Shown piece by piece: positions 19,000 through 61,139 of a stretch of 64,000 bases of DNA. Under the pieces are notes generated by a model that worked only from the letters and a program-made list of their open reading frames with translations, was not told the DNA's origin and made no database searches. This DNA is from Psammoneis japonica (lineage: Eukaryota): positions 62,001-126,000 of the forward strand of contig QPGO01000175.1 in the NCBI GenBank assembly GCA_008632985.1, read 5' to 3'. Each line of letters starts with the position of its first letter. Positions within the stretch are counted from its first letter, which is position 1. The position numbers and the translations under genes were made by a program.

Positions 19000-21900
19000 C
19001 TCGCGATGATGACGTCGGCATCGCTCTGTCCTTTTTTCACATCATGCACCCTGCTTCTCATTTTGCTAATTGCTGGCCCTCCGGCACCTTCCCTGATTGT
19101 CTTGACCCTTCTTCCTTGCCAACCCCCATTGTTGCCAAACCCTGGACTCAGCACTGTGCACCTTTGTCATCCCCGGCAACCTGCTGCAATTCCTCCTTCA
19201 AAGAAAATGCCGGCAGCACCCTTGCTGGTTTCACCCCTTCACTCTGTGGCTCCTCCCGCTGCAAGTGTGAAAATTTTCTTTCTCGCCTTCACACCTTTCT
19301 TGTTGGGAAAATCTCTGGCATCTGGCATCACCTTCAAACCCATCCTTCAGCCTCCTGGGACTGCTCACCCCCACCTGCTGTCTCTCAACCTTGCTGGCAA
19401 CAGGCACACCGTGCCTTGCCCCTCTCCACGTGCTCTGCATCTCTTCATCATCTGATGCCATGTGGGGTGCCCTTCTCTTTGCACTGTCAACCCTCTTTCT
19501 GCTCCTCCTAAATCCTTCCAACTCTTTGAGGCTCTGTTGCTTGTTGCTGCTGTTCTGCCAACCCATGCCAAGTCTGGCCTTCCCCCATTCTTGCCCCCCC
19601 CCCCCCCCTGCTGCCTCTCCCCTCTCCCACCTTCACCCCACGGCTGCGCCAACCCAACTTTTGTGATGAAGCCTTCTCTGCTTCAGACAGCTCTGTTGCT
19701 CACCCTCCACACCCTTTTTTGCCTGGGCCTGTTGCTGTTCTTCTCAAGGAGGAGAATGTGCTGATGAAGACAGCCCCTGTGCTCAGCCTGCTCCTCCGCC
19801 AATCTGACCTCGGCTCTCCCAGCAGCTGCCGTCATGCCTGGCTGAGTGCCTTCCCAAAGTTCTCAAGCTGAGACCTCCTCAATTTCATCCTCCCATCATC
19901 TCTTCAGCTTCCTGTGTCACCAGCTCCTTGTCTTGCTGAAATGATGACCCTTCCCATCTCTCACTCTCCTGCTGATGCCACAGGTGTCTTTGCTGGTTCT
20001 GCCAATCTCTGCCTGCCTTCTTTTTGGTCTCTTGTCCTCTTGCTTGTTTTCAGTGGCTCTGCAACCCTGCCATCCATCCTCTCCTGGCCTTTGACTGCTT
20101 TTTGTCACTCATCACTCTGTTGTGCGCAAGGAACCTGCTGAGACCTTGACAAGCTCCATCCTGTTGGCACTGGCATGGCCCTCAAGCTGATTGCTGCTGG
20201 TGCTCTGTTGTCATGGCCCTCCTTTTCAGCTCTGAGCTCACCAAGTGTCTTCTCCCTGATGTGGACAACTTGGCACTGGTGGAATCAAGCTGAGATTCAG
20301 TGGCACCTCTGCTTGGCCTCTCCTGCACAGGCTCTCCCCTTTTTCTGACCTTGTCAACATGTTTGTCAGAGCATTGCACAATGCTTGCCATCATCTTCTT
20401 GCCTCCATTGCTGCCTTCTGCTTGCTCCCTCCATTCATTGACATGGTCATTCACCTGAACTTCAACAAATGCTGGTGCTGCAGCCCTGGCTCCTCTTGGA
20501 GCATTCCTTCACCCAGTGTGAAGGATGCCCAAGGCTGTCCCCTTGGTCCCATCCTCCTTCACTCCATGAATTGCAAACTTCTCCATCACCTCCCACCCCA
20601 CTCTCCTGCCTCCATTGGCCCCTGCATCAATGACACACATTCATCTGTCCTCTGGTTCCTCTGTCCTCTGGTTCCTCTGGCACTTTGAAGCTCTTGGTGC
20701 TGTCCCATGGTGCACCAAGCTCAATCTCCACAAAACTCAGCTCCCACCCTGCAACCCTGCCAAGCTTGCTGCTTCCAACGCACCACCTTCCTTGGCCAGT
20801 CTGATGGCTCTTGCAAGCCTTTGCCACTCTTTCCTCTCTGACATGTCCTCCACTCTCTCCTCCAAAGTTGAGAAGCTCCCCACCTGCCTTCATGACAAAC
20901 AAACTCAAGCCCGCCTTTTGGACATTGTTCCATCTCTTCTTCTGGTGCCCACCTCCTCCTTGTTGCTCTCTGACTTTTGACTTTTGCCACAACTTTGATC
21001 TCAGCAACCCTCCCAACCCCCTTTCATTGGACCTCCTGTTTTCAAGATGCCCTCCTTGTCATCATCCATTGCTCCCTTCCCCTTGTCACCTGCTGTGCAT
21101 TCCCTTGCCATTGCTTTTTTCCCACAAGCCTCCCTTGGTGGCTTGGCTCTTTGACCCTCCTGCCATTTCCATCTCTTCCTTCCTGCTTGTGGCCCTTCTT
21201 CTGTTTCACCATCTCTGCTGCCCACAAAGCTCAGCCATCACCTGGCAATTCCATTGCTCACCCCTGGTGCCTCAAGGTCTCCCTTTCCTCTTGGAACACT
21301 CCCCACTCACATCTCTGCCTTTGTGGCAACTTTTGCTGCTTTGCCTGCACCCTGGACCCTGACTCTGCATCCTCCACCACTTCCCTGTCCTCGCTGCCTC
21401 TGGTCTGGGATCCAGCCTGCACCCACACCATCTCTGTTGTGCTCATCACAGGTGCATTGCTGCTTCCACCCTTGCTGGTGCTCCCCCTCTGATGTCCAAT
21501 CTTCTTTTTCCTCCCATCTGCTGCACCACCCTTCCTTCTGCTTTGTTCACTCTTGCTTCCTGCCCCTGTGGTTGTGCCATCCTGGATGCCTGCAGGGATC
21601 ACTTCTTCTTGCAGAAATGTTGCAGCCACATGCCCAAGCTCTGTCCAGCAGCCTTTGCAACACCATCTTTGTCATTTCTCAAATCTTGGGGCCTCTTGTT
21701 GCCAAGCTGTGTCACTCACCAGCTGATGTCCATCTCAAGCTCCATGTGAATCGTTTGTCCTCTCCCATCCCCTCCTTTGCTCAGCTGATGTCAGCATTTC
21801 CATTCATCCTTCTGCCTCTCTCTTTGCCTCTTCTTGTTGCTGTCACACTGCTGGGCTGTTGACAGGTCACTGCACCAGCCAAAGCTCCTTCTTGCCTGCC

Positions 21901-22435
21901 TCCCAGTCTGCCTGCCCCCTCCACTCCTGCACTGACTGAGGCACACACTGCTTGAGCTTGAGATTGAAGTTTTCTCCTTTTGCTGGTGGTTCTCTTGCCA
22001 TTGTGAACCCCTCAACAATGACAGGATCTTCTTCTTTTCTTTTGCTGTTGATTGCTTGGGTGGTCTTGGCTTCTTCTTTCACCACTTTTTCTTTGGTTCC
22101 TTGGCTCCTGCTGCTTGCTCTCAACCCAAGCCTCCCTGGCACCATCTCTCCACCCTCCACAACTTCAGTGCCTCCTGCTTTGCTTTCCTCCATGCCCTCA
22201 CAGTTTTCCTGTGCCTGTGCCCCTTCTTCCTTCTGCTGACTTAGCCTGATGCTGGAACCAACTTGCCAGCAAACACTTCAGCAGCATGCGCCATGCAATC
22301 CTCTTCTCCTTCTCAACAGGCTGCCCAAACATTGAGCTGCAACATTTCACATCTCATCCTCTCTCTGCTCATGCCTTTTGGCTCTTTTCTGCCCTTTGCA
22401 CAGACTCCTCCCCCACTCCATCTGCCAAATGCCAC
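19000..22435 (+). mobile_element. Degenerate CRE-like (RLE-type) non-LTR retrotransposon, copy 1
   Basis: Ordered remnants: KLHPVGTG (RPIG, ~20150), DLVNMF (~20347), QGCPLGP (20530-20550), CIND for YIDD (20623-20634), KLNLHKT, Zn knuckle CPCGCAILDACRDHFF (~21560), HPLLCSADV for RPADV (~21765), and an FAVD..GGLG RLE end (~22040). Confidence 0.85.
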
Positions 22436-22440
22436 TGTGT

Positions 22441-23240
22441 AACCTGGAAACCAGCACTTCAAAGTTCTGCCACATGTGCCCGCTTCTTGCCAACACCTGT
22501 GCGGCAAGACAACAACTCTGTCTCTGTGCACAGCAAGAAGGCAAGAGCAGGGTGAGTGGAGTGAGCTTAAAAAACAGCATGACATGCAATTGCAAGAGGC
22601 AAGAGCACACCACATGCCTTGCTCTGCAATGACAAAGCTGGCAGCAGCAAGCAGAGCACCCATGGCCACTGCAACGAGTGCCAAGGTCAAAAGAGAAACA
22701 CGGCCAACATTTGGTCCACTTTGCCGCCGTCTGAGTTGATTGTCAGAGCACTTGCAAGCAAATCAAGAACAGAGCTGAGGTCAAAATCAGAGTGCTGCTC
22801 CATGGCGCAGCAAGAGTCACAAAAAATCAAAGCACAAGATTTTGCTGCTGCAGAGCAATTGACAAGAGGCCGTCTCCCCTTGTTCCAACATTTTTGAGAG
22901 ACTGAGTGCCATGTCTGCCCAGCCCCTGCAGGCAGCCTTGCATTGCTGCTGTGCTTTTTAAAATGTCCTCCTCGGTGACTCCAGCCCCAAACCACAGTCA
23001 GTGCATTGTCCCATGCTTTGAAAATCCCAGACTGTTGCACAACCTGGAAACCAGTGTGTCAAAGTTCCATCACACTCTCATCCGCTTCTTGTCCACACAG
23101 TCATGGTGAGGAAATGACAATTCTGTCTCTGTGTGTGGGAAGGCAAGAGCGAGGTGAGTGGATGAAGTGCAAAAAGAAAAAAGCGCAACATGGTGCACGA
23201 TCATGACGGAACACACACACCTCACTCTGCAACAAAGCCG
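22441..23240 (+). repeat. Diverged ~200-bp direct repeat with 600-bp period (22441-22640 and 23041-23240)
   Basis: Both start AACCTGGAAACCAG...TCAAAGTTC...CCGCTTCTTG and share GAAGGCAAGAGC..GGTGAGTGGA. Confidence 0.75.
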
Positions 23241-24899
23241 AACGTGCGGAAATGTGAAGTGATCAGTCACTTTGCTGGCATATATCGTGGGAAAGAATGC
23301 CGACAGATGCGACGTTGGCACGCCGACACCAATGACTTTTGGTGGAAGGCACACTCGCTGCATGCAGTGGGTGTTTAGCCTTCATCCAAATGCAAAAAGT
23401 CCTTTTTGTGCATTGCATTCAGCCAATTCGATGAAATGGTGCCAAAATGACGCACGACAAACAAAGGCACGTATGTTATGGCACGCAATAGCCACGGAAC
23501 GCCTCGTATCTCGTTGCGCTAAATCATTCTATCTAAGTTAAGGTACACTTCTAAAAAATGGACATGTTTCTCTCACTCTACTAGAGAGTATTTTAAACTA
23601 TGCGAGGGGATAGCTAGGCCCGACTGTAGAGTTGATTGCTGCATACCGCGTTTACCACCCACCCACCCGTCAACATCATTGCTTGAATGATTTTTTGGAT
23701 GCTTGTTTTGATTCATGATCTTTTTTACCAAGATAGATCGAGAGTTTTTTCTTTGTTCGGCAGGTGTCAGTACGAATTCACGAGCCGGCAGAAACACCAC
23801 AACAAAAACAATAGCACGACTCTCTCCTTTTTATTGGCAGGATCCAGTGCGCATAAGCGAGCCGGACACATACCAAACAAGTCAAGAGTGCTAACACAAA
23901 TCCAATGTGAATCCATACGTCGTATAATGAGTCAAAAACATCTACAGAAAAAGAGTGTCGTCAGATAGATGATCATTCGCAACCCTTGATCGTGGTGTCA
24001 GTCTCGCATCTGCTTGACTCATTCGCAGATGAGCCACTTACCATCAATAGACAATACAGGCACGCAAGAAATTGTCAATGTTATTGTTGGTATGATTTTT
24101 GGGGAGCTTCTTTTGATTCAAAAGGGACTGTAGGGCACACCGCAGCGCCATTATGGTACGATGAAGAAATCCGATTGCAGCAGAATGGGGCAGATGTAGT
24201 CAGGAAACTATCAGCTATCATTTGTCCTTGGGGTGCTACCTGGCTCAGAAACCTCTGTATATGAGTGATAAAGACGACCATACCAAAGAAAATGAGTGAC
24301 ATAATACATAATGAAACAAAAGCGCAATACTGTACGATTCGATCGCGACAGACAGAGAGAAAATGAGTATCGAATCGTGGTGCAATTACAAAATCCATGT
24401 TTTCATCTTACAATTGGCTGATTACCTTCAAACAAGCAACATAAGTTGATTCTATATGATAGTAAAGACTAGTAAATAGCGTTGATATTGTTGAAAGGAT
24501 TGGCAACAGTCTATTAAACGCCGCTCCGATTCTCATGGTGGGTGTTGTTTGAGGAAATTTGTGCAGACGTGACTGAATGAGTCCCGTCTGACTTCGCGTG
24601 ATGGCCTTGGGGTTTTCATGCGGCTCAGTACCTTTTTCGCGCGAATTTTCGCGTGATTTTACACTCCCCATCGTTCGTGAATCACTTGGTACACATTGGC
24701 ACGCCTTGGCACGCTTGTCCACGAACCACTAAGTACTAAAATACACCCTGGCTACGCAGTGTCCCGTTTGTCCACAGGTGTCCAAAAAAATTCAAAGCAA
24801 AACGATGGAGAGTATAGCTCGAGGACCGAACCGGACCTCGCCTACTAGTAGGGCCCTACCTACCGGCGTACGGTACCGTACCGTACAAGTACCTACCCG

Positions 24900-25210
24900 C
24901 ACGACGACGACCCCTCCAGTTGCTGTTGCTGCGGAGCTTATTGTTGTTGCTGTTTCTTTCTCTCTACTCTAGAGATCGGTACTCTACCCGACAAAACTGC
25001 AAAGTGTGAGATGAAAGGAATACATTAGACGTGCATTTTGGTTGAAGCCTCGAGATGGATCATCGCTCAATCAAACAGCCAAGGTCAGAGGCGGCCACGA
25101 CAGTTGGTGAGCAGGTATTTTCCAACTTCCAACGTGCTTGAATGTGCTTACACATCGCCTCACTTTCTCTTTCATCCTAAAAATATCTGTTGCTTCAGTC
25201 TATCGAACCG
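24900..25210 (+). repeat. ~300-bp direct repeat, copy A (copy B at ~26910-27275); looks like 5'UTR plus an intron
   Basis: Shared TAGAGAT(A)CGGTACTCTACCC...GATGGATCATCGCTCAATCAAAC...CAGTTGGT(G/A)AGCAGGTATTTTCCAACTTCCAACG...CGCCTCACTTTCTCTT. Confidence 0.85.
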
Positions 25211-26909: not shown

Positions 26910-27275
26910 TCAACGACGACTCCCTCCAAGTTGAGTGCGAGTTGCTGTTGCTGGTAGTTGGAGCGGAGGTCGTTGCTACTCTTGCTGCGTTGCTTGGTTG
27001 TTGGTGCTGTTTCTGGCTAGAGATACGGTACTCTACCCTACAACAACTGTGAAGTGTGAGTTGAAAGGAACACAATAAACGAGTATTTTGTGTGAAGCCT
27101 CACGATGGATCATCGCTCAATCAAACGGCCATGGTCAGCCACGACAGTTGGTAAGCAGGTATTTTCCAACTTCCAACGTTGTTGAATGTTCTTCGTCAAA
27201 AGGAATGTCAAAGATCTGTACACGTCGCCTCACTTTCTCTTACATCCTTAATATCTGTCGCTTCAATCTATAGAA
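26910..27275 (+). repeat. ~300-bp direct repeat, copy B
   Basis: See copy A. No downstream ORF follows this copy. Confidence 0.85.
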
Positions 27276-40481: not shown

Positions 40482-40936
40482 GGTGCTGCTATGCTGCTGT
40501 TTGCTGTCGATGTTGTTGAAAATGACAGCCGCATCCTTTTTTCGCTCGCGTTCGCTCGACTTCGTTTCACGCGCGATGTATGTGTGCGCGCGCGCTTGAA
40601 TGCAAGCAAAATGGCACAGATGCCTTTCTCAAATAATAGTCAATCCCGTGTAGCATAATTAATCATCTTTATGTATGGTTATTCATATTTGTGAGACTCC
40701 TAAACACATGAATGATAATATTCATGAGTTATTCTTGTGCATTGGCATGTTTCTTCCGATGAAAAATGTATCAAACATTCAATCATTAATGTGTCTGAAA
40801 AATCATTTTCCGTTGAGTGTTCCGATTTATTAGGAGTTTCAGAAATACACATGCATTTACTGATAACTGATTGAATGATGAGGTGCGCATCGTTGCTCGT
40901 TTTGCCAGAACATGCCAACACACAGTTGTTGCGACC

Positions 40937-42988
40937 ATGATGACGACGAAGCTATTGCAGTTGATACTACTATGCGTCGCTGCAACGACGACACTGGCTC
41001 AAACAACCATTAATGGCGTGATTGTATCATCTGTTGGAAACAACGGTCAACAACAACAGCAACAGCAACAAAAACCGTTTATTGAAAAAGAAGTTCTGTA
41101 CAATCTCAATCCGTTTGACCTTGTGTTCAGTTCCACACACCACGAATTCTTTGCCACGGGCGAAGCATCTCCGTTTGATAACATCAAGAGCGAAATACGA
41201 ATCATTACCGGATGGTACTTGGAAGCCTTTATCGATAATCTCATTGGTCGAACAGGCTTGGGCTTTCGACAAGTGTCATCGGTCGATTTGCAAGTGGCCT
41301 ACTTTCGACCCGAGCGACCCGGAGACGAACGCAGGTTACAGCAAGGACAAGATGATCTCGAGAAAGAATGGGGATTTCGAGCCGAGATTTATGGAGTGTG
41401 CAAGTTCTTGGTTAACGAATTTAACGCTATTCCTCCAAGAACACAAGTGGAGCGGGTGTTGAATCAGTTGGTTCGAGATGCCTTTGATCAACGAGGGATC
41501 GGGCTCTATGTGGATCAAATGAAGGCAAGTCCCGACAAGGTACTGGCCAACATTGTTACTTTACGGGTGGAGACAGACGAGGTAGCTGCAGTGGATCCAC
41601 CAGAGGGTGAAACCGAGACACAAGAAGAAGAAGGAGGTGGAGGAGGAGGTGAAAGCAGTGGTAGTGGAGGCGGTAGCAAGTGGGACACCAAGGCCTATGT
41701 TCTATGCTTTCTCATGGCCTTCTTCTTGATTGCATCGCTTGTTTGTCTCTACAAGTTCATGTCTCGTCGATACCACGATCACAAGGCCAACAAGAACTTA
41801 ATGGCTACCGATCACTACTTGGACGATATGAATCATATGCTACCACACCAGAATGGAGCTCAAGAAAGCAATCGATACTTGTCACCGGACCGACCCTCGT
41901 TGGATCGACGACTGCTCTATTCCAGTGATCCAAAACAAAACGGGAGTGGTTCCAATGAAAATGTGGTTCCTGTTCCAGCTCCGGTGGACAGGCATCAAAA
42001 CCTTTATGACTTGGGCGATGAAAACCAGACACCCCGGAGGTACATTAATCCTTCGTCTCCTTTACAAATTCTCTACGGTGCTTCCTTTTTGCACGGATCA
42101 AATGCTCAACAAGGCAGTGGTGGAAAACAAAAGAGACGACGTTCCAGTCGAAAGGCACCCTCCGCAAATATCCGTCCCATGCTGAGTATTGCCGAAGAAG
42201 AGCATCCCGGTGGACGTGATTCTCATTATTCCGTGTCGCCGGCGGCGGGCGTCACGTCGTGGATTCGACAATGGACGGGATATCCCGACGAATCGCTGGA
42301 CAAGTTTCAGCATGATGGTGCTCCTTTGCCGAGTCCAACCGGAGTGGAGGAAGTGGGAGTCTTTTACCGGGACTTTCCTCGTCATGACGGTACACCCTGT
42401 CTTATTTACAATTCGGCCCACGGCGATTCGCTTGAACACGGTATGGAAGCCAATGACAATGACGGATCTCTCAAGCTGGACGAAGTGTACATTCGAGACT
42501 CATCCTATCATTCTACGGGTTCCTTGCTTTCGCTAACGTCTGCTCAATCGGCCCGTCACTTTGCTTCCGAAAACAACGACAATGATTTTGTCGTCAAACT
42601 AGAACACTTGATGGAGATGCGTCAAAAGCAATACCGAGAACGTGTGCAAATGGAACAAGAAAAGGCAGCGTACGCCAAGAAACGTCACGAGGGAAGAGCC
42701 AATACTCGGCGGTCCATGTCGTTGGATATACAACAAGAAAATAATGGACCAACAACAAGCAGCAGCGCCGCGAGCGTCGGAGCAGCGAGTGTTCCCCATT
42801 CAAGCCATGATAATAGCCGTGGCATGACAAGTCACCATGATGTTGAGAGGTGTCTTAGTCCCTCGACTACTACGAAAGCGACGGAAGCGACTGTATCCAT
42901 GGATGCCGATTCATCCAGGAGTGGACAGTCAAAGAAACTCATCTCCGTATCACGTATTCGGGAGGAGCAAGGACACGTCATTACATAA
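40937..42988 (+). CDS. Type I membrane protein (signal peptide, extracellular domain, one TM, long disordered tail)
   Basis: MMTTKLLQLILLCVAATTTLA signal peptide, RRLQ motif common in diatom secreted proteins, TM AYVLCFLMAFFLIASLVCLY. Confidence 0.75.
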   Translation: MMTTKLLQLILLCVAATTTLAQTTINGVIVSSVGNNGQQQQQQQQKPFIEKEVLYNLNPFDLVFSSTHHEFFATGEASPFDNIKSEIRIITGWYLEAFIDNLIGRTGLGFRQVSSVDLQVAYFRPERPGDERRLQQGQDDLEKEWGFRAEIYGVCKFLVNEFNAIPPRTQVERVLNQLVRDAFDQRGIGLYVDQMKASPDKVLANIVTLRVETDEVAAVDPPEGETETQEEEGGGGGGESSGSGGGSKWDTKAYVLCFLMAFFLIASLVCLYKFMSRRYHDHKANKNLMATDHYLDDMNHMLPHQNGAQESNRYLSPDRPSLDRRLLYSSDPKQNGSGSNENVVPVPAPVDRHQNLYDLGDENQTPRRYINPSSPLQILYGASFLHGSNAQQGSGGKQKRRRSSRKAPSANIRPMLSIAEEEHPGGRDSHYSVSPAAGVTSWIRQWTGYPDESLDKFQHDGAPLPSPTGVEEVGVFYRDFPRHDGTPCLIYNSAHGDSLEHGMEANDNDGSLKLDEVYIRDSSYHSTGSLLSLTSAQSARHFASENNDNDFVVKLEHLMEMRQKQYRERVQMEQEKAAYAKKRHEGRANTRRSMSLDIQQENNGPTTSSSAASVGAASVPHSSHDNSRGMTSHHDVERCLSPSTTTKATEATVSMDADSSRSGQSKKLISVSRIREEQGHVIT

Positions 42989-43159
42989 TGGCTTTTTAAA
43001 AAAGACGAAGTGATTCCAGCACTTCATTAGGTACATTTGTTTATTACTACCCTCGTTTATACTAAATAAGGAGCTAAAGAGCCTACTAGAGTAGACAGAA
43101 ATACCGGCATGTAGGACTGCAGAAGGAGGCGTCAAAGAAGCTGCTACTAGGTAGAGCGG

Positions 43160-45410
43160 AGGGCGCTTTGTAGAGGGATGAAGGAAAGTGTCCTTGCAAA
43201 GGGTAGAGAGGAAGCAAAGAGCATGAGAGGAGAGGTGGCGTGCAATGTTGGAACTGAGAGTCTGAGTCACCCACTGAGAAGGGGAGGAGGAGTGGTGCGT
43301 GCTGCACCAAAGCGATTGCTGGCAAGTTTGATCAAGGCAAAGTCAACAGAGGGAAGCTGAGAGGGGGGAGAAGCAAGAAGTGAGCCCATGGAGCAAGGCA
43401 GAATAGGAAGCATCAGAGTCTTGCAAGGTGGGTGGCAATGGCCAAGGAGGCTTGGGCTGAGAGCAAGAAGCAGCAGAAAGCAAAGAGCCAAAGAACAAGT
43501 GGCAAAAGAAAAAGCCGAGACCACCAAAGTGATCATCAACAGCAAATGGGAGAGGGAAGATCCTGTCATTGATGAGGAGATTCAACACCAAGAAAGCCAT
43601 CAGCAGAGGAGGCAGAGGTGCCAAGAAACTTTGATCTTGGCTCAAATGGTGTGCCTCAGTCAACGCTGGAACCGAAATGGCCGGCAGACCAGGATGAGGG
43701 TGTGAGAAGAACAAGGAGGTTTGGGTGAGTTGGCATCAACAGTTGTGTGGTGCAGCAGTCATGGTGGCAGCAGGAGCATGTGGAGAGGGACGTGGGAGGA
43801 GGGGCAGAGATGCCAACATCAGCAAGGTGGAGAAGAAGAGGATGGGAGGTCAGAAGGGTTGCAGGTTCAAGGTGTGAACATTGTTGGGAAAACGACACAC
43901 AGCTGACCACCAGGGGCCCCAGGGTCTGTGAAATGATGAAGGTGGTGCCTTGCAGAGGCCGCTGGAGAGCTTGAGCTTGCAACTGCATTGGAATGAGAAG
44001 GTGTGATTAGCGACCACCACAGGCATCAAGGGTGGTGCATCCACGGTCCACAGGGCAGGGAGAGCAAGCCAACATGACATGGATGATGAAGGATGCAGAG
44101 GCACAGCTTGTGCTGAGCAGCAGTGGGCTGGTGCAGGTGCCAGAGGCAAGGCAAGAGGGCTGAAAAAGCACAAGAAAAGGAGTGAAGGGGGTGGCTTGCA
44201 TGAGGGAAAGAAGGGAAGACAGAGAGACTGGAGTGTCAGATGGAGAGTCAGCAGAGGCAGGTGCGGTGGTGTGCTGTTCATCACCATGGCAGAGATGGCA
44301 GGCTAGACCAGCAGGAAGAGCTGATGACGTGACAAGAGCATCCAAGGAGGGAGAGAGTTGGATTGAAGGGTGGGGGCACAGCAATGGAAGAGGGCCCACA
44401 AGTGGAGATTGGAGCAAGGGTCACTCCAAGAGGAGAGAGAGAGAGAGCTTGAAGCAGTGGGAGAGGCTGGACATGTTGACAGAGTCAACAGGCTTCATTG
44501 GCTGAGCTCCACATGAGTGGCAAAGGGAGGCAGGCAGAAAGGCAATGGCAAGGGAGCAGGGGAGGTCAGCATGGCTGGTGGGAGGATGCAGAACACAGCA
44601 GAAAAAGTGGCGGGTGATGGCAAGATGGGCTTCTTGGAAGGGAGGAGATGTCCAGCACTGGGAGGGCTCCTGCTGAGGGTTGTGAGGATCAGAGTTGTGG
44701 TGGAAGTCAACACAATGAGGTGAGCTGAGAGCAGGGAACAAAGAGCAGCACTTGACAAGCTGAGCCAGTGTTTGTTTGTTGTGAGGACAAGCAAGGAGCC
44801 TCTCCACCTCAGAAGAGAGGGTGGAGGATGTGGCAGAAAGCAGGGCATTGGCAAGGGCTTGAGTGCCCCAGCAGAGGCTGGCCAAGAAAGTGGACACTGG
44901 AAGCAAGCTTGGGGCCACAGGACAGGTCATTGACAGGGTTGAGATGTGAAAAGGCAGTGCAAAGGGGGGCTGCTTGGGAAGGGGTTGGGGAGCAAGAATG
45001 GGGCTGGCACCACTGATCAAGACAAGGAGCTCTGGGTTTTGGGAAGGTTGAGCTTGGTGCCGCAGGGGGGGAGCACAAGAGCTCAAAAACACTGAGCAAA
45101 CCAAGGCACAGAAGAGCAAATGAGGAGGAGGCATGTGCAACATCAATGTGAGAGCCAACAGAAGATCAGGAGAGTGAGGTGGGAGACATGGAAGGAGCTC
45201 TTGTGGCTTGCAAAGTGGCTGGAGGCCAGGTGGCAGAGCCAGACCACAGGTGAACAAGATGTGGGTGGGGCGGAGAGGGCACCCTTGAGCAAGCCCTCCA
45301 TGCATGCTGCACAAAGGAGCTCCAAGATGAGTTGGAGTGGCAACGCCAGCACTCATTGGAGTTTTGACAAGTGGCATAAAGAAAGGAAGAGCAGGGTGGA
45401 AGGCAGGCTT
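43160..45410 (-). mobile_element. Degenerate CRE-like non-LTR retrotransposon, copy 2 (5'-truncated, inverted relative to copy 1)
   Basis: GLAQGCPLRP (~45290), HIDV for YIDD (45139-45150), SSTLSSEVERL..HNKQT, Zn-knuckle remnant (~44030), HPLLLHLADVGI (RPADV) and LPFAVDDHFGGLG. Colinear similarity to 20500-22435. Confidence 0.85.
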
Positions 45411-46260
45411 TGAGGTATGAGGTCATGATGGGTGCTGTGCAAAACCAACCACAGCCAATTGACCCACATGCATGACTCAACACAACACCGTGGGAAAAGA
45501 AAGGTGACTGTTTTCAATTCCAAACTCAACATTTTTGCCAAAACAAATCATTTGACACCAGTCAGGTTTTGAAGATTGATTTGAGGTTCTCACCCAGAAA
45601 ACTTTTTTGTGGCAACAAGCTCCATGAGACAAGAGAAAAGATTGAGATGCCAATGACTCCTGCCTTTGAGTGTGTGTTTGGGCATGTTTTGCTCTGCCAC
45701 TGTGCTCTTTACACCTCATTCCATCTGACTTGTTGTGTTCTGTTTTTCCCATTGAATTGGCAGAATGCTGGGGGGGGGGCTGCTGAACTCATGCCCCACC
45801 AAAGATGGCAACAGCTTCCAACTCAGTGTTGCCAAGAATGGCTCACATCATTTCTCAGGTTGTCTGCAATGAAACAAGTCATGATCAAGTGTGGTGGTGC
45901 CAAAGACAATCATGCTCTTGGCTGGCAACTTTTGGCTGGCAACTTTTGGCTTCCTGCATGCAGATGAAGGTGCAATTGAACAAGATCCCCACATGAATTG
46001 TGACATCAAGTGATGGCAAAGCATTTGTGAAATTGCACTGCAAAGCAGCATGGCAAGGTGCGCTTCCCACACTCGAGATGGACTTGCCAATGCAGAAGGG
46101 TGGAATGAAGCTTGACAACTGTGGGCCCAACAGTTTTCTGTTTGAAGAGCCACTTGTGATTGAATGTCCATTCCGACAATGCATTGGGATTGGTTGAAAA
46201 TTCTCAATTTCCTGGCTTTTTTTTTTTCACTCTTGCTTTGCTTCCCAGACTGTGCGCCTG
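45410..46260. mobile_element. Unidentified degenerate TA/CG-depleted DNA adjoining CRE copy 2
   Basis: Same dinucleotide signature. No family motif recognised. Confidence 0.4.
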
Positions 46261-46635
46261 CTGTGAATGCCTGTTACAAAATACAAGAAAAATTATTTCG
46301 GTGGCGTAGCATTGTCTAACAGCAGTCGTAGCTTCTAACAGACTTGTGGAAACTGTGTAAAAAGATGTTGCACCGACACTTGTTGAACTAGAGCCTCCGA
46401 AACTTTCAATGCTGCGGAAGCCTATCAGAACTATAGTAGACAACGTTGCACAGGTGATAGTTTGCAGGCTCGGCTATCTGATGTTCAATATTATGATAAC
46501 GCCATATTCAATTCACACCAGCCATTTTCTCCCCGAAACCATTGACATCTTTACTTTTCACGGCTTCTTCACAGTTTTCTGTTTCACTATAATCAATCTC
46601 AGATAAGGTATCAGCATCACTAACGGCATCACACA

Positions 46636-50268: not shown

Positions 50269-50999
50269 TTGCTAATGGCCACTACAAACTGGAGCGGTAA
50301 CTTGTATGGTTTTACCGACTACAATGGACCCCAACCATATGTCAGCAACGCAGTCAAAGAAATTAACCAGAACGACGAGGACGAAGAGAATCCGCTGACG
50401 TGTGGGCTATGGCTCGAGGGCGATTCGTTGGCGCCGCCTTGCGGGACGTCGATAACAACCATTCATGCACTACTCGAGTTTGTGTCTGCATCCGAGAATG
50501 ACATTCTCTATGACATGGGTTGCGGTGACGGGCGAGTGTGTCTGGAGGCAATCGTGAAATGCAACTGTAAACATGTTGTTGGAGTTGAAATCGAAGACGA
50601 CTTGATTGCCAAGTTTCGAAACTTGATCAACAGCTTACAGCATAAATCTCTTATGGATCGAGTCATTCCTCTTCCACAAGATCTCAGAGAGGTTGTTGCG
50701 AGCTTGGTGAAACAGGAACGCAAAGGACTGAAAGCTCGAGTCTTGAAACATCTTTGTTGCCTACTCCATCCATTATTGTTTTGTACTTGTTACCGGAAGC
50801 AGTAGCTGAGCTACAGAGCAGCCTTCTCAACCTTCTTCTACTGGTGCCGAACTTACGAATTGTGTGCAACACGTGGGGATTCAGTGATGCAGCAATTCTG
50901 CCCACAAAGACGCGTGAAGTAGACGAAGGTGGCGGAGCGACAACCAAGCTGTTCTTGTATACAAAAGACGGAATGGTCGAAAAGAACGAGAAAGAGTGA
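50269..50999 (+). CDS. Class I SAM-dependent methyltransferase (frame break near 50730; start uncertain; possibly pseudogene)
   Basis: SLAPPCGT, ILYDMGCGDGRV, VGVEIEDDL, then IVLYLLPEA...RIVCNTWG in another frame. Confidence 0.7.
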
Positions 51000-51455
51000 C
51001 AGAATAGGTGGCGGAAACTTGGAATCCCGATGATGTCATTGTGGTCAGATCGTGTTTGACGAAGGACAACATGACGTGTGGTGTGGACTTGTATCGCGCC
51101 AATGCACTGCGTGTGTTGGTGTAGATTGTCGTTGCGCGATGTGTGGATTCGTCAGGACAAGTGTCGAGTTCGGCCCTCGTGAGTGCGTCGTTGCACCTCT
51201 TTGCGAGTTATCCCGAGTGCGCCGCCGTAGTGAAACGAAAATGGCTCAATACCATGCCATGCAACTCTTGCATCAAATCAAGGCATACGATCATCTCGGC
51301 ATTTCCAAGCTTGTGGCCGCAGTACAGTCAACGCAACTCGCTCAAATCATCACTCGCCGTGGTGAAGTAGGCCGAAGGTGGCGGAGGGACAACCAAGCCA
51401 TTCTTGTATACAAAAGACGGACTCGTCAAAAATGATGAGAAAGAGTGACAGAATA
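50914..51455 (+). repeat. ~93-bp direct repeat (50914-51006 and 51362-51455) flanking the gamma-COP fragment
   Basis: GTGAAGTAG..CGAAGGTGGCGGAG.GACAACCAAGC..TTCTTGTATACAAAAGACGGA...GAGAAAGAGTGACAGAATA appears in both copies. Confidence 0.9.
51007..51361 (+). pseudogene. COPG: Internal fragment of coatomer gamma subunit (gamma-COP) with frameshifts and a stop
   Basis: AETWNPDDVIVVRSCLTKD, MTCGVDLYRANALRVLV*, VSSSALVSASLHLF...VVKRKW and AQYHAMQLLHQIKAYDHLGISKLV match the gamma-COP N-terminal trunk. Confidence 0.8.
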
Positions 51456-54099: not shown

Positions 54100-56980
54100 A
54101 TTGTCACACCCCTGTGGTAGGGGAGAATGTGGTGATGTCATGGTTGCGTGGCAGTTTTGTGTCTTGTGCATTGTGCGTTTTTACACAAGTGTCCTCACAC
54201 TGATTTGTGCACTTGCACAAACACCAATGGCAACGGGAAAAATCCTGAACCAGGCATCACAAGTGGGTTTTGCCTCTTTCTTGCTTTGCTGCAGAGTCTG
54301 CCGGACAACGTGCTTGAGCTGACTGCACACATTTTCTTGGCTCTCTGCATTTGGGCTTTGTGCTTTGCGGCTGTTTCCTCATTTTGGGTGGAAGGGGGTG
54401 GTGTGCCCAGGGCAGGTTGGGCCCAACCCCAACCAGCATTCTTCTGCCAACAATTGTTGCAACACATCTCCAACATCTCGAGCAAAGAAACAACAATCTT
54501 GCCACGCCTGACCAAATTTTCAAACTGGGTTGGGACACATCTGTTGTGTGCTCTTTGGGTCATGGCTCAGCTGTTTCATTGGATCTCTTGTGGACTCATG
54601 TCATGCTTTGATGACATGCTCTTGGCCACAGCATTCCTCAACACAATGCATTCCTTTCGGACTCACAAACTGCATGATGAATCCTTGTTGTTGGATCCAA
54701 TTTTTTGACAAAAACCAAGCTCAGTGAGAGTGGCGATGATTCTTGTTGCGACATCCTGCTAAGACCACAACGACCCACATGAATGAGTCCGATTTTCTCT
54801 CTTTGCATTTGCAAGGCTTGTCATGATCAGTGCAGCTTTTCATGAAATCACCATGCCAGGTGCAGAGCTGGGTAAAAAGCTCCATGTTGCTCCCATTTCG
54901 AATCAAGAGCATGGTGTTTGTGGAGTTGTTTTGTGTGGCATCTGGCTCCTGATGCTGTGCAGCATTTTGGTTTCTTAAAATTTCATTTGGTGCACAAGGA
55001 TGCTGGCATGAGGGGTGTTCAGTTGCACACACTGGGGTTGGGATGATGTTTGTTCAAGTGCACTGAGAAGAGCAATTGACCATCACCAGAAAAGTGAGTT
55101 GATTGTCGAGTGTGGTGGCTGATGCATGCATCACACAAAGACGATGCAAAATTCCAAGAAGAGAGCTGGAATGTTGTTTGCTGAGAATGACCCATCTTCA
55201 GCCAAAGCCTTTTTGAATGCACTGGACAAAGGTTGCCACCAGATGTTGGAGACAATGAAGCACGGGCAAATGTGCTGTCAACCAGAGGCAGCAGAGATGA
55301 AAAGTTCAAAGATGACAAGGTTTTTTGCATGGATTGTGTGGCTGCCATCCGATCTGGCAATGAGAGAGGCACAAAATTTGCCAAACTGTCTTGGTGCATT
55401 GAAGGAGGGTGCGCCGACCAACTTTGGGATGTCTGACATTGATTTGCTCTGCATTTCATGTGAACTTCAGGTTTGACATGTTTCGACAAACGTCGCCACT
55501 GTGCAGCATTCTGCAGTGGCAACAACCACAAATGGAGTGTCTTGAAAGCAGCTCAACAGCCTCTCAACAGTGCACAGAGAAACAGTGCAGAAATGCACAA
55601 CAGTGAGAGCAGTGTTTGCAAGATGGCAAAACATCTTTGTTGCATGGCAAAGCACGGTCGTAGACTCTGTGACAAATTTGCACCAAAAAATTGAACACCC
55701 CCCCCCTCCCCAAATGAGCCATGAACACCTCCCATTTTTAAGAGGGTGTGGTTGATGGAGAATTTGCACCCGCATCTGTCGCAGCACTCGAGGAGGTTGG
55801 GGGGAGTGCTGCCATGTTGCGGGCGAAGCACACAAAGGAACTCTTTGCCACTCAGCATTGATGGGTGCACTGACAGCCATGCTCCAGCACTGGTGCTGCA
55901 CTTGACAGCTCTCCTGGCCTTGAGGTTGGGTGGAGTCCAGAGGATTGTCTTGAGTTTCTCCTTGTGCATCTTGGCTTTCCTGCTGGCCACTTCTTTTTTC
56001 ACTTTGCATGTGGCATGTCCTTTTGTGGACTGCTGGAGCAAAATCTGAGTGGCCACAAAGCAAGTCTGTCATGTGGGAGCATGCAAGAGCACCACCAGTG
56101 TCACAGTTTTGGGATGCAGGTCCGTTGGATGAGGGGCGCTGGACAGCCCTTTTTGCAAATTTGATTGGGGGGGCAGACAGGGCTGATCTTGGGCAAGGAG
56201 GGGGGCAGCAGAGCAAGGTGACAGGTGTGTGGCTGCAGTGCAGCAGATGTTGAGTGTTGGCACTCTGGTTGGCTGTTGACAAAATCAGAAAGAAGGGCCC
56301 AACAGGCAAGTGCACGCGCGCACCATGCACGCACGCTGCATGAGCCAGTCTGCGTGGAGGGACCTCATGGCTGAACAGTTTAACCAAAACAATTTTTTGC
56401 TTTTTGCACAAGAAAAAAAGACTTTGACCATGGTGAGCAAATCATTTGCGGCGGCGTCAATGTTGACAATCGAGTGGCAATCGCATCGGGAGAGTCTTTT
56501 TAAACCCTGTTGGAAGCATCTGCTGCTGTGGCGATTGCCGCTTGAATTTTTCCTTTAGATGTTTTTTTTTCCCATCCACTGCTTCTCATGCATGTTTTTG
56601 CTGTTGTTGCCTCCATCCCAATCAAAGGTTGCGAATGCCTCTGTGACCGAAGCACACAAAGGTTGCACGCGCATTCATCGAACGATTCAACAGAAGTGGT
56701 GCTGGTGTGTGGATGGAAGGAGTTGCCTCCGGATGTTCGTGCTTGTTGGTCAAGCACCGCCGTGCTTCATGCTTTTGTGTGGCAAGAACATGCCTACGAC
56801 AAGGGTAATTGTTCGGTTGCGACTACGTCAATGTTTTAATTTGAGAGGCAAGCACACACGGAATGTGCATGCAGCCGCAGCGCAGCACCTGCAGTTAGTG
56901 ACAGCACACAGTCAAAAGCGAGACAGATGCAACCACGGTGTCTGGCCATCAGCAGGAACTATAGCCATAGTGGACACGCA
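54100..56980. mobile_element. TA/CG-depleted TE island 4 (composite)
   Basis: Strong TA depletion and Cys/His-rich junk ORFs. Contains the CRE fragment listed next. Confidence 0.6.
55690..56400 (-). mobile_element. Degenerate CRE-like non-LTR retrotransposon fragment of a different subfamily
   Basis: RRAVKCSTSAGAWLSVHPSMLSGKEFLCVLRPQHG...LECCDRCGCKFSINHTL.KMGG corresponds to the CRE GAWL...EF...LRLRYG...CDGCG...HAL.C..GG region. Confidence 0.8.
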
Positions 56981-59380: not shown

Positions 59381-59522
59381 GCTACAAAGCTACGAAATAT
59401 ATTCAAGCGCACCCAACTACTGGTGCTATGTAAAAGAAAAATGCCACTCGCGTAATCTAGCCGACTCCTCAATGAAGCCTGCCTGCGGCGGTCGCTACCG
59501 GTATAGCTAGGGTAAGAACACG

Positions 59523-59796
59523 AGAAAACTTTTGTATTAAATTAAAATAGACTCGCAAATGGATCCTTCTTGCCCGTCCATTGATTAGTTTGTGCGTCAT
59601 GGATATCGCCGCCTTGTACTTGATCCCATACTCATGACTGTTTGCTGCTGCATCATGCGAGAAACGTTGTATTAAGTTAAAATAGGCTCGCAAATGGATC
59701 CTTCGTGTCCGTCTGTTGATTAGTTTGTGGCGTCATGGCGGAAATCGTCGCCCCCGTACTTGATCCCATACTCATGACTGGTTGCTGTTGCATCAT
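59523..59796 (-). repeat. Tandem duplication (~135 bp) of the ArfGAP gene 3' end
   Basis: 59523-59657 and 59659-59796 share TTGTATTAA.TTAAAATAG.CTCGCAAATGGATCCTTC...GTACTTGATCCCATACTCATGACTG. Confidence 0.85.
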
Positions 59797-61139
59797 ACTC
59801 ATGCTAGTTTGCTGCGGCATCATATTCATGTTGAACTGTTGCTGCTGCATCGTACTCATGCTTGGTTGTTGCTGCTGCATCATACCCATGTTCATCTGCT
59901 GCCGTTGCATCATATTCATCTGTTGCTGCTGCTGTTGCTGCATCATCATGACTTGCTGCGGAGTCATACCGCCAGAGTTCATTTGGGTATTCATGCCAAA
60001 CGACATGTTGGTACTGTTTCCGAACGATGTTTGAAACACCATATTATTGTGTTGTTGTTGTTGCTGCTGCTGCTGCTGACCTGACGAGCCCTTCATAAAG
60101 TATCCCATTGCTGAAATCTTGCTACCACTATTGTCATTCATAACGGATTGCTTAGGTTGAACTGCAGGTTTTTGCGCTGGTGTACTTAAATCCGCAAGGT
60201 TCCCTGCTCTTGACATATCTGCATTGTTCGTCTCCACCGCGCTGCTATTCCCAAAGGGATCAAAATAAGCAAACCCACCGCTCGTTGTGTCAGATACGTT
60301 GGTGTCTTTGTCTTTCGTGGTTGCTGCACCAAATACGTCAGCTCCCTCAGTCTTCTTTGGAGCATCGCTGTTCCCAAACGGATCAAAGACCGCTTCATTT
60401 GTTGGAGCGGGTGTTACTACTGGTTCTTGAGCAAACAAGTCTGGAACGGGTGTAGAAGCAGGAGCTGCAGTAGCCGGTGGAAAGGATGCAAAGTTGCTGG
60501 TGGAAGCGTCAGTTTTTGGTTTCGATGCCGACTGGGAAAAGCTAGCAAAGTCCTGGCTGCTTTTCGGCGGAGCACGTAATGGCGCTGCGAAGGAGCCTGT
60601 TTTCTTTTTGCTACTTTTCGCAGGAATGGATGTGACGTCCTGTTCCGGTACCGCCATTCCTACATTAACTTCCTGTGCCTGTCCATAATACTTTTTGTGT
60701 TCATACGCATTGAGAATAAACTGTTTGAACACGGGCAACGAATCTCCTTGCTTCGGACGTCCACCGACACCAATGGGCGGTGCATTCGCAAGCCAGGTCC
60801 TACGAGCCACCTCGTTCCCATTCTGCTTCAGCGCTTTCGCTTCCTCGGCACTCCACGACGACATTGTCCTGTATGTAAGAAAACGAAGTGAGTAAAACAA
60901 CAAACAAATCCAACTTCACGCTTCACGCTCAACACTCGAGATATTTATACGTACAGAGACTTGCATCGGTGAGAATAGGCTTGATGAGAACTCTTGCAAT
61001 CATTACATACAAAAGTGTAGAACTTAATGCAGACATTGGAAAAGCCAAGCTTCTTCGATTGACCGCAGTTGGGGCACGTGGTGTTGGTCGGTAAGCGTGC
61101 CAATTTCTTCACGGCAAGCTCGGCTTTCGGGTCAGACAT
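59677..61139 (-). CDS. ArfGAP-domain protein (AGFG-like), intron ~60870-60953
   Basis: NTTCPNC...VCIKFYTFVCNDCKSSHQAYSHRCKSL|TMSSWSAEEAKALKQNGNEVAR, followed by DPF motifs and a Q/M-rich tail. Confidence 0.9.

What the first reader, a model, noticed from the sequence alone, without database searches (positions are those of the whole stretch)
43160..43260. Internal control: the island edge keeps TA/CG that the paralogous interior copy has as TG
Seen: the 3' end of CRE copy 2 (minus strand, next to a gene) reads ctcTAccctttgca...ctcTAcaaagCGcc. The homologous stretch deep in island 2 (22385-22433) reads ttcTGccctttgca...atcTGccaaaTGcc. Inference: the same ancestral sequence was mutated inside a silenced domain and spared at a boundary, so the process depends on position or chromatin rather than on the element's own sequence.
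Basis: seen in the sequence. Interest (0 to 1): 0.75.

Follow-up and report, generated by a model that had tools for sequence, protein, structure and literature searches.

The report
Transposon edges escape TA-erasing mutation
In this diatom, a mutation process that rewrites TA to TG or CA inside transposons spares roughly the last 150-250 bases of a copy when that end touches ordinary DNA, but not when it touches other mutated DNA, so the process is aimed by chromosomal neighbourhood rather than by the transposon's own sequence.

Summary
The three sites are real, but alone they are thin: the two copies are only 64% identical (different subfamilies), and the CG is not edge-specific in this pair. 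The inference survives a proper test. The element is a non-LTR retrotransposon of a diatom. Copy 2 ends near 43057 and keeps 15 TA in its last 150 bases, against 4 in the next 2,210. In a younger subfamily A>G at TpA runs about 25 times above other A>G, on both strands. The same terminal TA sites are kept 217 of 234 times in 22 copies that abut ordinary DNA, and 48 of 115 times in 12 copies that abut TA-stripped DNA. 5'-truncation edges and a second repeat family agree, with exceptions. Best reading: a DNA-level TpA mutator confined to silent chromatin that fades at domain borders; chromatin marks, expression and the enzyme were not testable. TpA hypermutation is in print for Bigelowiella natans (one preprint), and this scan has noted the stripped islands many times in this genome, once across an edge; I found no account of the flank-controlled border effect.

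The parts
43057..43206 (-). 3'-terminal 150 bases of retrotransposon copy 2: the spared margin, 15 TA and 4 CG
   Evidence: Aligns with the 3' ends of other copies; counts; covered without a letter change by a contig of run X1
43204..43205 (.). TA kept in copy 2 (TG at 22390 in copy 1)
43171..43172 (.). TA kept in copy 2 (TG at 22423 in copy 1)
43164..43165 (.). CG kept in copy 2 (TG at 22430 in copy 1); one of 8 such CG sites spread along the copy
43207..45416 (-). Body of copy 2, 5'-truncated, TA-stripped (4 TA, about 100 expected)
   Evidence: Homology to the young subfamily ends at 45416; counts
45417..46270 (.). Rest of island 3, TA- and CG-stripped DNA not matched to the element
19045..22435 (+). 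Retrotransposon copy 1 in island 2, lacking about the last 105 bases; no TA in its last 150 bases
22436..23280 (.). TA-stripped DNA that separates copy 1 from the island edge, with a 120-base direct repeat (22441-22560 / 23041-23162, 70%)
40871..42988 (+). 705-codon open frame with ordinary TA and CG, ending 69 bases from copy 2's 3' end (tail to tail); probable gene, no Pfam family
   Evidence: Atlas first hit 0.90 to a diatom cluster, weak by the tool's own recognition value
56397..56866 (.). Partial copy of the second repeat family at the right edge of island 4, the query that found the family used for replication

Best explanation
After a repeat has inserted, its DNA is exposed to a mutator that turns the A:T pair in TpA into G:C (TA to TG or CA, either strand, best in YTAY). 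Exposure is set by the chromosomal domain, not by the element: it is low in the first 100-250 bases next to ordinary (genic or intergenic) DNA, rises inward, and is high right up to the junction when the neighbour is already stripped. SHOWN: spectrum, strand symmetry, flank-dependent sparing of the same sites, independence from codon position and from the direction of the neighbouring open frame. INFERRED: that the domain is CG-methylated silent chromatin whose marks fade over the first one or two nucleosomes beside active chromatin (about 70%). GUESSED: the chemistry; a TadA/ADAT-like adenine deaminase acting hit by hit, or inosine left unrepaired in silent chromatin (about 35-40%), ahead of a modified T at TpA (about 25%) or an error-prone polymerase (about 15%). 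The site at 43160-43260 is one old example of this border.
For: A>G in 493 of 3,236 TpA observations (15%) versus 243 of 39,247 other A (0.6%); CpG C>T 319 of 10,452 (3%); 24 copies, counted against the column majority. YTAY 0.37 sense and 0.36 antisense, RTAR 0.12 and 0.12; 69 of 118 sites went both ways. Flank contrast 217/234 versus 48/115; 0 of 100 label permutations reach the 3' effect, 1 of 100 the 5' effect. Older copies alone (<95%): 6 versus 10 copies, p 0.014. Truncation edges 15/15 versus 8.1 expected (core), 28/44 versus 19.3 (all 16 copies); next to stripped DNA 13/43 versus 20.4. Loss 9/191 within 100 bases of an ordinary edge, 84/303 beyond 2 kb, 28/57 within 200 bases of a stripped edge. 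Five old copies with ordinary flanks hold nearly all their TA in the last 150-250 bases. Second family 16/30 versus 1/29, and one copy (L150) lying in ordinary DNA keeps TA throughout. CG is lost twice as often within 60 bases of a lost TA (0 of 150 permutations), other variable columns 1.04-fold. Sparing occurs whether the nearest open frame points away or toward. In Phaeodactylum, DNMT5 CG methylation and repressive histone marks sit on transposon-rich regions (PMC9998398, passages); this genome has C5-methyltransferases and a TadA-like deaminase.
Against: No chromatin, methylation or RNA measurement. Exceptions: L039 keeps 3 of 9 beside an ordinary flank, L109 keeps 10 of 10 beside a TA-poor flank, L146 keeps 0 of 3 in family 2; five older 5' edges with ordinary flanks keep little within 300 bases (L096 0/6, L106 0/5, L108 0/3, L038 1/6, L112 2/8), which later deletions or insertions could explain but I did not test. 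Core copies with no ordinary edge lost only 18 of 120. The length scale is not fixed (fit 1.8 kb, bootstrap 80-5,000 bases). TA loss and CG loss per copy are not significantly correlated (rho 0.35, p 0.11, 22 copies), some TA-stripped flanks keep their CG, and private other changes are also somewhat raised near lost TA (1.48-fold, 4 of 150 permutations). Sites in one copy are not independent and some changes were inherited from master copies, so site-level p values are optimistic. Only 2 core copies have a stripped 3' flank; L085 and L113 share one 5' junction.
Confidence: 0.72

Rival explanations
1. Homology-triggered mutation, like fungal RIP with another chemistry: paired copies are mutated and the ends of the shared homology are spared.
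For: All tested stretches are repeats; sparing lies at element ends. That RIP weakens at repeat ends is recalled, not checked (one search gave listings only).
Against: Ends beside stripped flanks are also ends of homology, yet are not spared (48/115). A copy in ordinary DNA keeps TA throughout although 12 relatives at 73-84% identity are stripped. The hypermutable viral region of Bigelowiella is single-copy. Homology could still seed the silent state.
Confidence: 0.1
2. Purifying selection keeps element ends intact because they serve as promoter, UTR or terminator of the neighbouring gene.
For: Many young copies sit within tens of bases of an open frame; private non-TA, non-CG changes are a little lower near ordinary edges (7 in 4,295 bases versus 84 in 29,900).
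Against: That drop is under two-fold on few events, while TA loss drops four- to six-fold; sparing holds for both gene directions, at 5'-truncation points and in an unrelated family.
Confidence: 0.07
3. Transcription running into the element end, rather than a chromatin border as such, protects it (repair coupled to transcription).
For: Copy 2's margin starts 69 bases behind a stop codon on the opposite strand.
Against: Ends upstream of open frames that point away are spared as well; the loss is strand-symmetric (measured in interiors only). Cannot be separated from chromatin without RNA data.
Confidence: 0.07
4. Artefact of assembly or polishing (edges corrected by uniquely mapping reads, interiors not), of copy age, or of editing during the RNA stage.
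For: Run X1 may be the assembly's own sample and its library type is not on record; copies in stripped DNA are older on average (92.6% versus 95.3%).
Against: Old islands are unique DNA yet TA-free, and X1 contigs carry island 3 with 6 changed letters in 2,557; edges beside unique but stripped flanks are not spared; the effect survives age control; both strands are hit alike, which RNA editing would not give.
Confidence: 0.04

Closest known systems
TpA hypermutation of integrated NCLDV and virophage DNA in Bigelowiella natans (Mettrop et al., bioRxiv 10.64898/2026.01.13.699255; read parts 1-4 of 5 of the text, supplements closed)
   Same: A>G and T>C confined to TpA, on both strands, in foreign or mobile DNA; TpA-poor, CpA/TpG-rich clusters enriched for reverse transcriptase and transposase domains.
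   Different: A rhizarian, measured as new mutations; here a diatom, read from paralogues. The text has no 'diatom', 'boundar', 'edge' or 'flank' and names RNA guidance and epigenetic marks only as possibilities. Here depletion is nearly complete, runs beside CpG decay, prefers YTAY and has a flank-dependent spared border.
Repeat-induced point mutation (RIP) of ascomycetes (features recalled)
   Same: Repeat-directed, dinucleotide-specific transitions in sharply bounded blocks.
   Different: Opposite direction (RIP makes TpA from CpA/TpG); here neighbourhood overrides homology.
Decay of methylated CpG in DNMT5-methylated diatom transposons (PMC9998398, passages seen)
   Same: CG>TG/CA in the same islands, also weaker at ordinary edges.
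   Different: About five times slower than TpA loss in young copies and does not explain changes at A:T pairs.
Polymerase eta A>G at WA in error-prone repair (recalled)
   Same: A>G favoured after T; could be coupled to repair of deaminated 5mC.
   Different: AA is not raised here (0.2-1.0%) and neighbouring hits are not strand-coordinated.
CRE-like non-LTR retrotransposons with a restriction-like endonuclease (features recalled)
   Same: RVT_1 domain, then a CCHC finger and a PD-(D/E)xK-like motif, A-rich 3' end, frequent 5' truncation.
   Different: Two open frames, scattered insertion sites, almost no target duplications; clade not tested by a tree.

Membership tests
Bigelowiella-type TpA hypermutation | A>G / T>C almost only at TpA | tested here: met
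   493 of 3,236 versus 243 of 39,247; 493 of 502 changes at the A of TpA are to G
Bigelowiella-type TpA hypermutation | Both strands (TG and CA outcomes) | tested here: met
   540 TG and 283 CA; equal rates by strand once context is matched
Bigelowiella-type TpA hypermutation | Confined to foreign or mobile DNA | tested here: met
   Of 5 islands in the window, 2 hold the retrotransposon and 1 holds multicopy repeats; 2 were not identified; genes keep TA
Bigelowiella-type TpA hypermutation | About 1,000-fold raised rate of new mutations, active in some lines only | not testable with these tools
   Needs mutation-accumulation lines; copies vary from 2/82 to 24/81 lost
Bigelowiella-type TpA hypermutation | ADAT2/TadA-like candidate enzyme | tested here: inconclusive
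   9 deaminase matches, one TadA-like (L125); such genes have ordinary tRNA roles and nothing ties it to DNA
Fungal RIP | C>T at CpA, creating TpA | tested here: not met
   TpA is destroyed, CpA/TpG gained
Fungal RIP | Extent set by shared homology | tested here: not met
   Same homology ends are spared or not according to the flank
Fungal RIP | RID-dependent, premeiotic | not testable with these tools
   Needs genetics
Polymerase eta WA mutagenesis | A>G raised at AA as well as TA, in strand-coordinated clusters | tested here: not met
   AA 0.2-1.0%; same-strand share 0.54 versus 0.56 permuted
Methyl-CpG decay | CG>TG/CA excess in repeats | tested here: met
   319 of 10,452 in young copies; CG o/e 0.03-0.3 in islands 2 and 3
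Methyl-CpG decay | 5mC present on these repeats | not testable with these tools
   C5-methyltransferase genes present; no methylome
CRE clade of non-LTR retrotransposons | RT followed by CCHC finger and restriction-like endonuclease, no apurinic endonuclease | tested here: met
   RVT_1 is the only Pfam family; finger and endonuclease motifs judged by eye from recalled patterns
CRE clade of non-LTR retrotransposons | RT groups with named CRE elements in a tree | not tested
   35 relatives at 30-43% identity bear no clade names
CRE clade of non-LTR retrotransposons | Site-specific insertion with target duplication | tested here: inconclusive
   Unrelated flanks; a shared word of 10 or more bases in 1 of 39 copies; the feature is recalled and not universal in the clade

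The most novel reading that the evidence does not exclude
Diatoms run a chromatin-guided adenine (or TpA-thymine) DNA editor as a heritable genome defence: silent domains are marked, the editor erases TpA inside them hit by hit, and a border one or two nucleosomes wide beside active chromatin shields neighbouring genes. It would be a second, homology-independent solution to what RIP does in fungi, shared with a rhizarian, and it would leave each old transposon end as a fossil map of a chromatin boundary.
Probability: 0.45. Interest if true: 0.85.

Novelty: new variant of a known kind. Interest (0 to 1): 0.62.

Why it matters
The one paper on TpA hypermutation leaves open how targets are chosen. 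Comparing the same sites across copies shows that neighbourhood, not element sequence or copy homology, decides exposure, and that genes are buffered by a short spared margin. That turns targeting into a direct test in a tractable group (Phaeodactylum has DNMT5 knockouts), narrows the enzyme (strict TpA, YTAY, both strands, not strand-coordinated), and warns that age estimates and trees of diatom repeats are distorted by a fast, position-dependent clock.

Tried and rejected
Pfam on the open frames inside the islands and on the neighbouring frame: nothing. TET/JBP (a route to a modified T): no match, but the control was silent too, so no conclusion. Expression of the neighbour: no RNA holder listed. 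Run X2 (kind guessed as DNA) has contigs over 40937-42989 and other open frames and none over the islands; suggestive of RNA, but its kind is not on record and absence of cover is not used. Strand-coordinated tracts, expected of a processive enzyme or a repair patch: not seen. Exponential length scale: unconstrained. Codon position of TA sites: no sheltering of amino-acid-changing sites. Target duplications: mostly absent. Differences between the assembly and X1 in island 3: 1 of 5 single-letter rows shown is TA/TG (45417), too few to call ongoing mutation (17 rows were not shown). Literature: searches found no paper on TpA loss in diatom repeats; two found only the Bigelowiella preprint; others gave listings I did not read. 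Most subscription papers are outside the library. Rows dropped before the family-1 counts: 3 near-identical duplicates and 5 secondary pieces, leaving 42; of these 34 entered the 3' test (3 lacked the end, 3 had intermediate and 2 too short flanks). Family 2: L155 (duplicate) and L142 (lacks that end) left out. Genome searches return at most about 40 places, so neither family was sampled completely.

Full report
Setting. The window is G000:C175:62001-126000 of a 91-Mb assembly. The best named relatives of its NOP58 gene are mostly diatom proteins (Cylindrotheca, Bacillariaceae, Phaeodactylum, Chaetoceros, Nitzschia). Five islands (about 2.8-6.1, 18.9-23.3, 43.2-46.3, 54.2-56.8 and 61.4-64 kb) have TA o/e near 0-0.1, lowered CG and raised TG and CA, while the genes between them do not.

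The observation. The quoted letters are there. Copy 2 has TA at 43204 and 43171 and CG at 43164 where copy 1 has TG. Other copies share each retained state, so retention in copy 2 is the likelier polarity. As evidence the pair is thin: the copies belong to different subfamilies, only 3 TA/TG sites exist between them, and 7 of the 8 CG sites kept by copy 2 lie further inside.

The edge is larger than reported. Copy 2 aligns with the 3' ends of other copies to about 43057, 69 bases from the stop of a 705-codon frame on the other strand. Its last three 50-base steps hold 9, 4 and 2 TA; the next 2,210 bases hold 4. Copy 1 has lost that end to another repeat, lies about 845 bases inside island 2 and has no TA in its last 150 bases. 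Four more old copies with ordinary flanks hold 4, 4, 4 and 9 TA in their last 150-250 bases and at most 1 in the rest of 600; a sixth with a TA-poor flank holds 2.

The element. A young subfamily of about 6.2 kb has two open frames, RVT_1, a CCHC finger and a PD-(D/E)xK-like motif, an A-rich 3' end and many 5' truncations: a non-LTR retrotransposon of the restriction-like endonuclease type. The label CRE is plausible but was not tested by a tree. Two searches gave 40 and 41 places (lower bounds); 42 copies at 85% or more remained after dropping 3 duplicates and 5 secondary pieces, 24 of them at 95% or more.

The mutation. Against the column majority of the 24 core copies, the A of TpA reads G in 493 of 3,236 observations, other A in 243 of 39,247, and the C of CpG reads T in 319 of 10,452 (observations, not independent events). 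Rates match between strands once context is matched (YTAY 0.37 and 0.36, RTAR 0.12 and 0.12), and 69 of 118 sites went to TG in some copies and CA in others. Of the 31 TA left deep in the window's islands, 23 are in the slow TAA/TTA context. Hits cluster within copies (0.38 versus 0.15) but are not strand-coordinated (0.54 versus 0.56) and ignore codon position. This is a mutation of double-stranded chromosomal DNA after insertion, not RNA editing.

Flanks were classed by TA in 400 bases (9 or more ordinary, 5 or fewer stripped). The same terminal sites are kept 217 of 234 times in 22 copies with an ordinary 3' flank and 48 of 115 times in 12 with a stripped one (p 2.8e-5 by copy; 0 of 100 label permutations). 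Copies in stripped DNA are older, but the link survives control for identity (partial r 0.60, 38 copies) and holds among older copies alone (p 0.014). Sites turned into an edge by 5' truncation are kept 15 of 15 times beside ordinary DNA against 8.1 expected from the same sites in interiors (5 core copies), 28 of 44 against 19.3 in all 16 copies, and 13 of 43 against 20.4 beside stripped DNA. Loss rises from 9 of 191 within 100 bases of an ordinary edge to 20 of 251 (100-600), 54 of 345 (600-2,000) and 84 of 303 beyond; it is 28 of 57 within 200 bases of a stripped edge, but only 18 of 120 in core copies with no ordinary edge. An unrelated, unclassified repeat family repeats the result: 16 of 30 versus 1 of 29 at one end (6 and 6 copies), 1 of 64 and 1 of 133 inside, with one copy in ordinary DNA unstripped throughout. 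CG shows a weaker edge effect in family 1 and a clear one in family 2 (54 of 59 versus 26 of 54).

Against. L039, L109 and L146 break the rule, as do five older 5' edges. The length scale is not fixed (bootstrap 80-5,000 bases). Per-copy TA and CG loss correlate only weakly (p 0.11). Site-level p values overstate independence. No RNA holder was listed, so 'expressed gene' is untested.

Rivals. Homology ends (RIP-like) fail because identical ends are spared or not by their flank. Selection on gene-adjacent ends is weak: other private changes fall under two-fold (7 in 4,295 versus 84 in 29,900 bases) and sparing is seen with open frames pointing either way. Polishing artefacts fail because unique old islands are stripped and contigs of run X1 carry both the margin (no changed letter over 40800-43284) and island 3 (6 in 2,557), though X1 may be the assembly's own sample. 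Read-through transcription cannot be excluded.

Mechanism. Shown: a TpA-specific, strand-symmetric mutator whose exposure depends on the neighbourhood. Inferred: the neighbourhood is silent, CG-methylated chromatin, because CG loss is doubled within 60 bases of lost TA (0 of 150 permutations; other variable columns 1.04-fold, private others 1.48-fold) and diatom transposons carry DNMT5 methylation with repressive histone marks (PMC9998398, passages). Guessed: adenine deamination by a TadA/ADAT-like enzyme; the genome has one, the TAY preference recalls the TadA substrate (recalled), and Mettrop et al. propose the same. A modified T at the palindromic TpA fits the data equally; the TET/JBP search was uninformative.

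What is known. Mettrop et al. (bioRxiv 10.64898/2026.01.13.699255; parts 1-4 of 5 read; supplements closed) measured the same TpA spectrum as new mutations in viral inserts of Bigelowiella natans; the text does not mention diatoms, edges, boundaries or flanks. Searches found nothing for diatoms. Earlier notes of this scan, which led me to that paper, record the stripped islands many times in this genome and one transposon lying across an edge; two word searches for an edge-versus-flank test found no note holding all the words.

Verdict. Observation confirmed, interpretation supported well beyond the three sites; a new variant (diatom host, flank-controlled spared border) of a process described once. 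Interest 0.62.

Noticed in passing
Young subfamily junctions, e.g. L031, L081, L088, L089, L094 (5' ends) and L032, L034 (3' ends): Full-length copies begin at an ATG right behind A-rich host sequence that looks like a 5' UTR, several 3' ends run almost directly into an open frame, and target duplications are nearly absent: the element may prefer gene starts and borrow host promoters.
   Followed up: no
L150 (G000:C72), about 850-2030: A member of the second repeat family that keeps TA throughout and lies just upstream of a 454-codon frame; possibly the host source of a captured fragment or a domesticated copy.
   Followed up: partly
L137:1069-2163, L138:1549-2487, L139:748-2013: C5 DNA-methyltransferase frames that are themselves TA-stripped (0.1-0.5 per 100 bases) with CG kept, probably carried on mobile or viral DNA.
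   Followed up: no
L127:313-1785 (-) and L125:1327-2055 (+): A zinc-deaminase domain in one open frame with a 2OG-Fe(II) oxygenase, and a TadA-like deaminase.
   Followed up: no
L039, L101, L100 (G000:C127 near 138.5, 152.7 and 167.0 kb): Three 99% identical truncated copies about 14.2 kb apart: a tandem segmental repeat; also an exception to edge sparing.
   Followed up: no
window 45416-45417 and 56806-56807: TA in the assembly, TG in contigs of run X1; the first is in unique DNA and may be an allele or a recent hit, the second may come from paralogues.
   Followed up: partly
window 22441-22560 and 23041-23162: Direct repeat pair (70%) that interrupts copy 1 and fills the right end of island 2.
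   Followed up: no
window 24923-25207 / 26979-27275; 50914-51006 / 51362-51455; 13076-13160 / 13282-13360; 59519-59950: Local duplications in ordinary DNA at 75-89% identity that are not TA-stripped: short nearby repeats do not by themselves draw the mutation.
   Followed up: no
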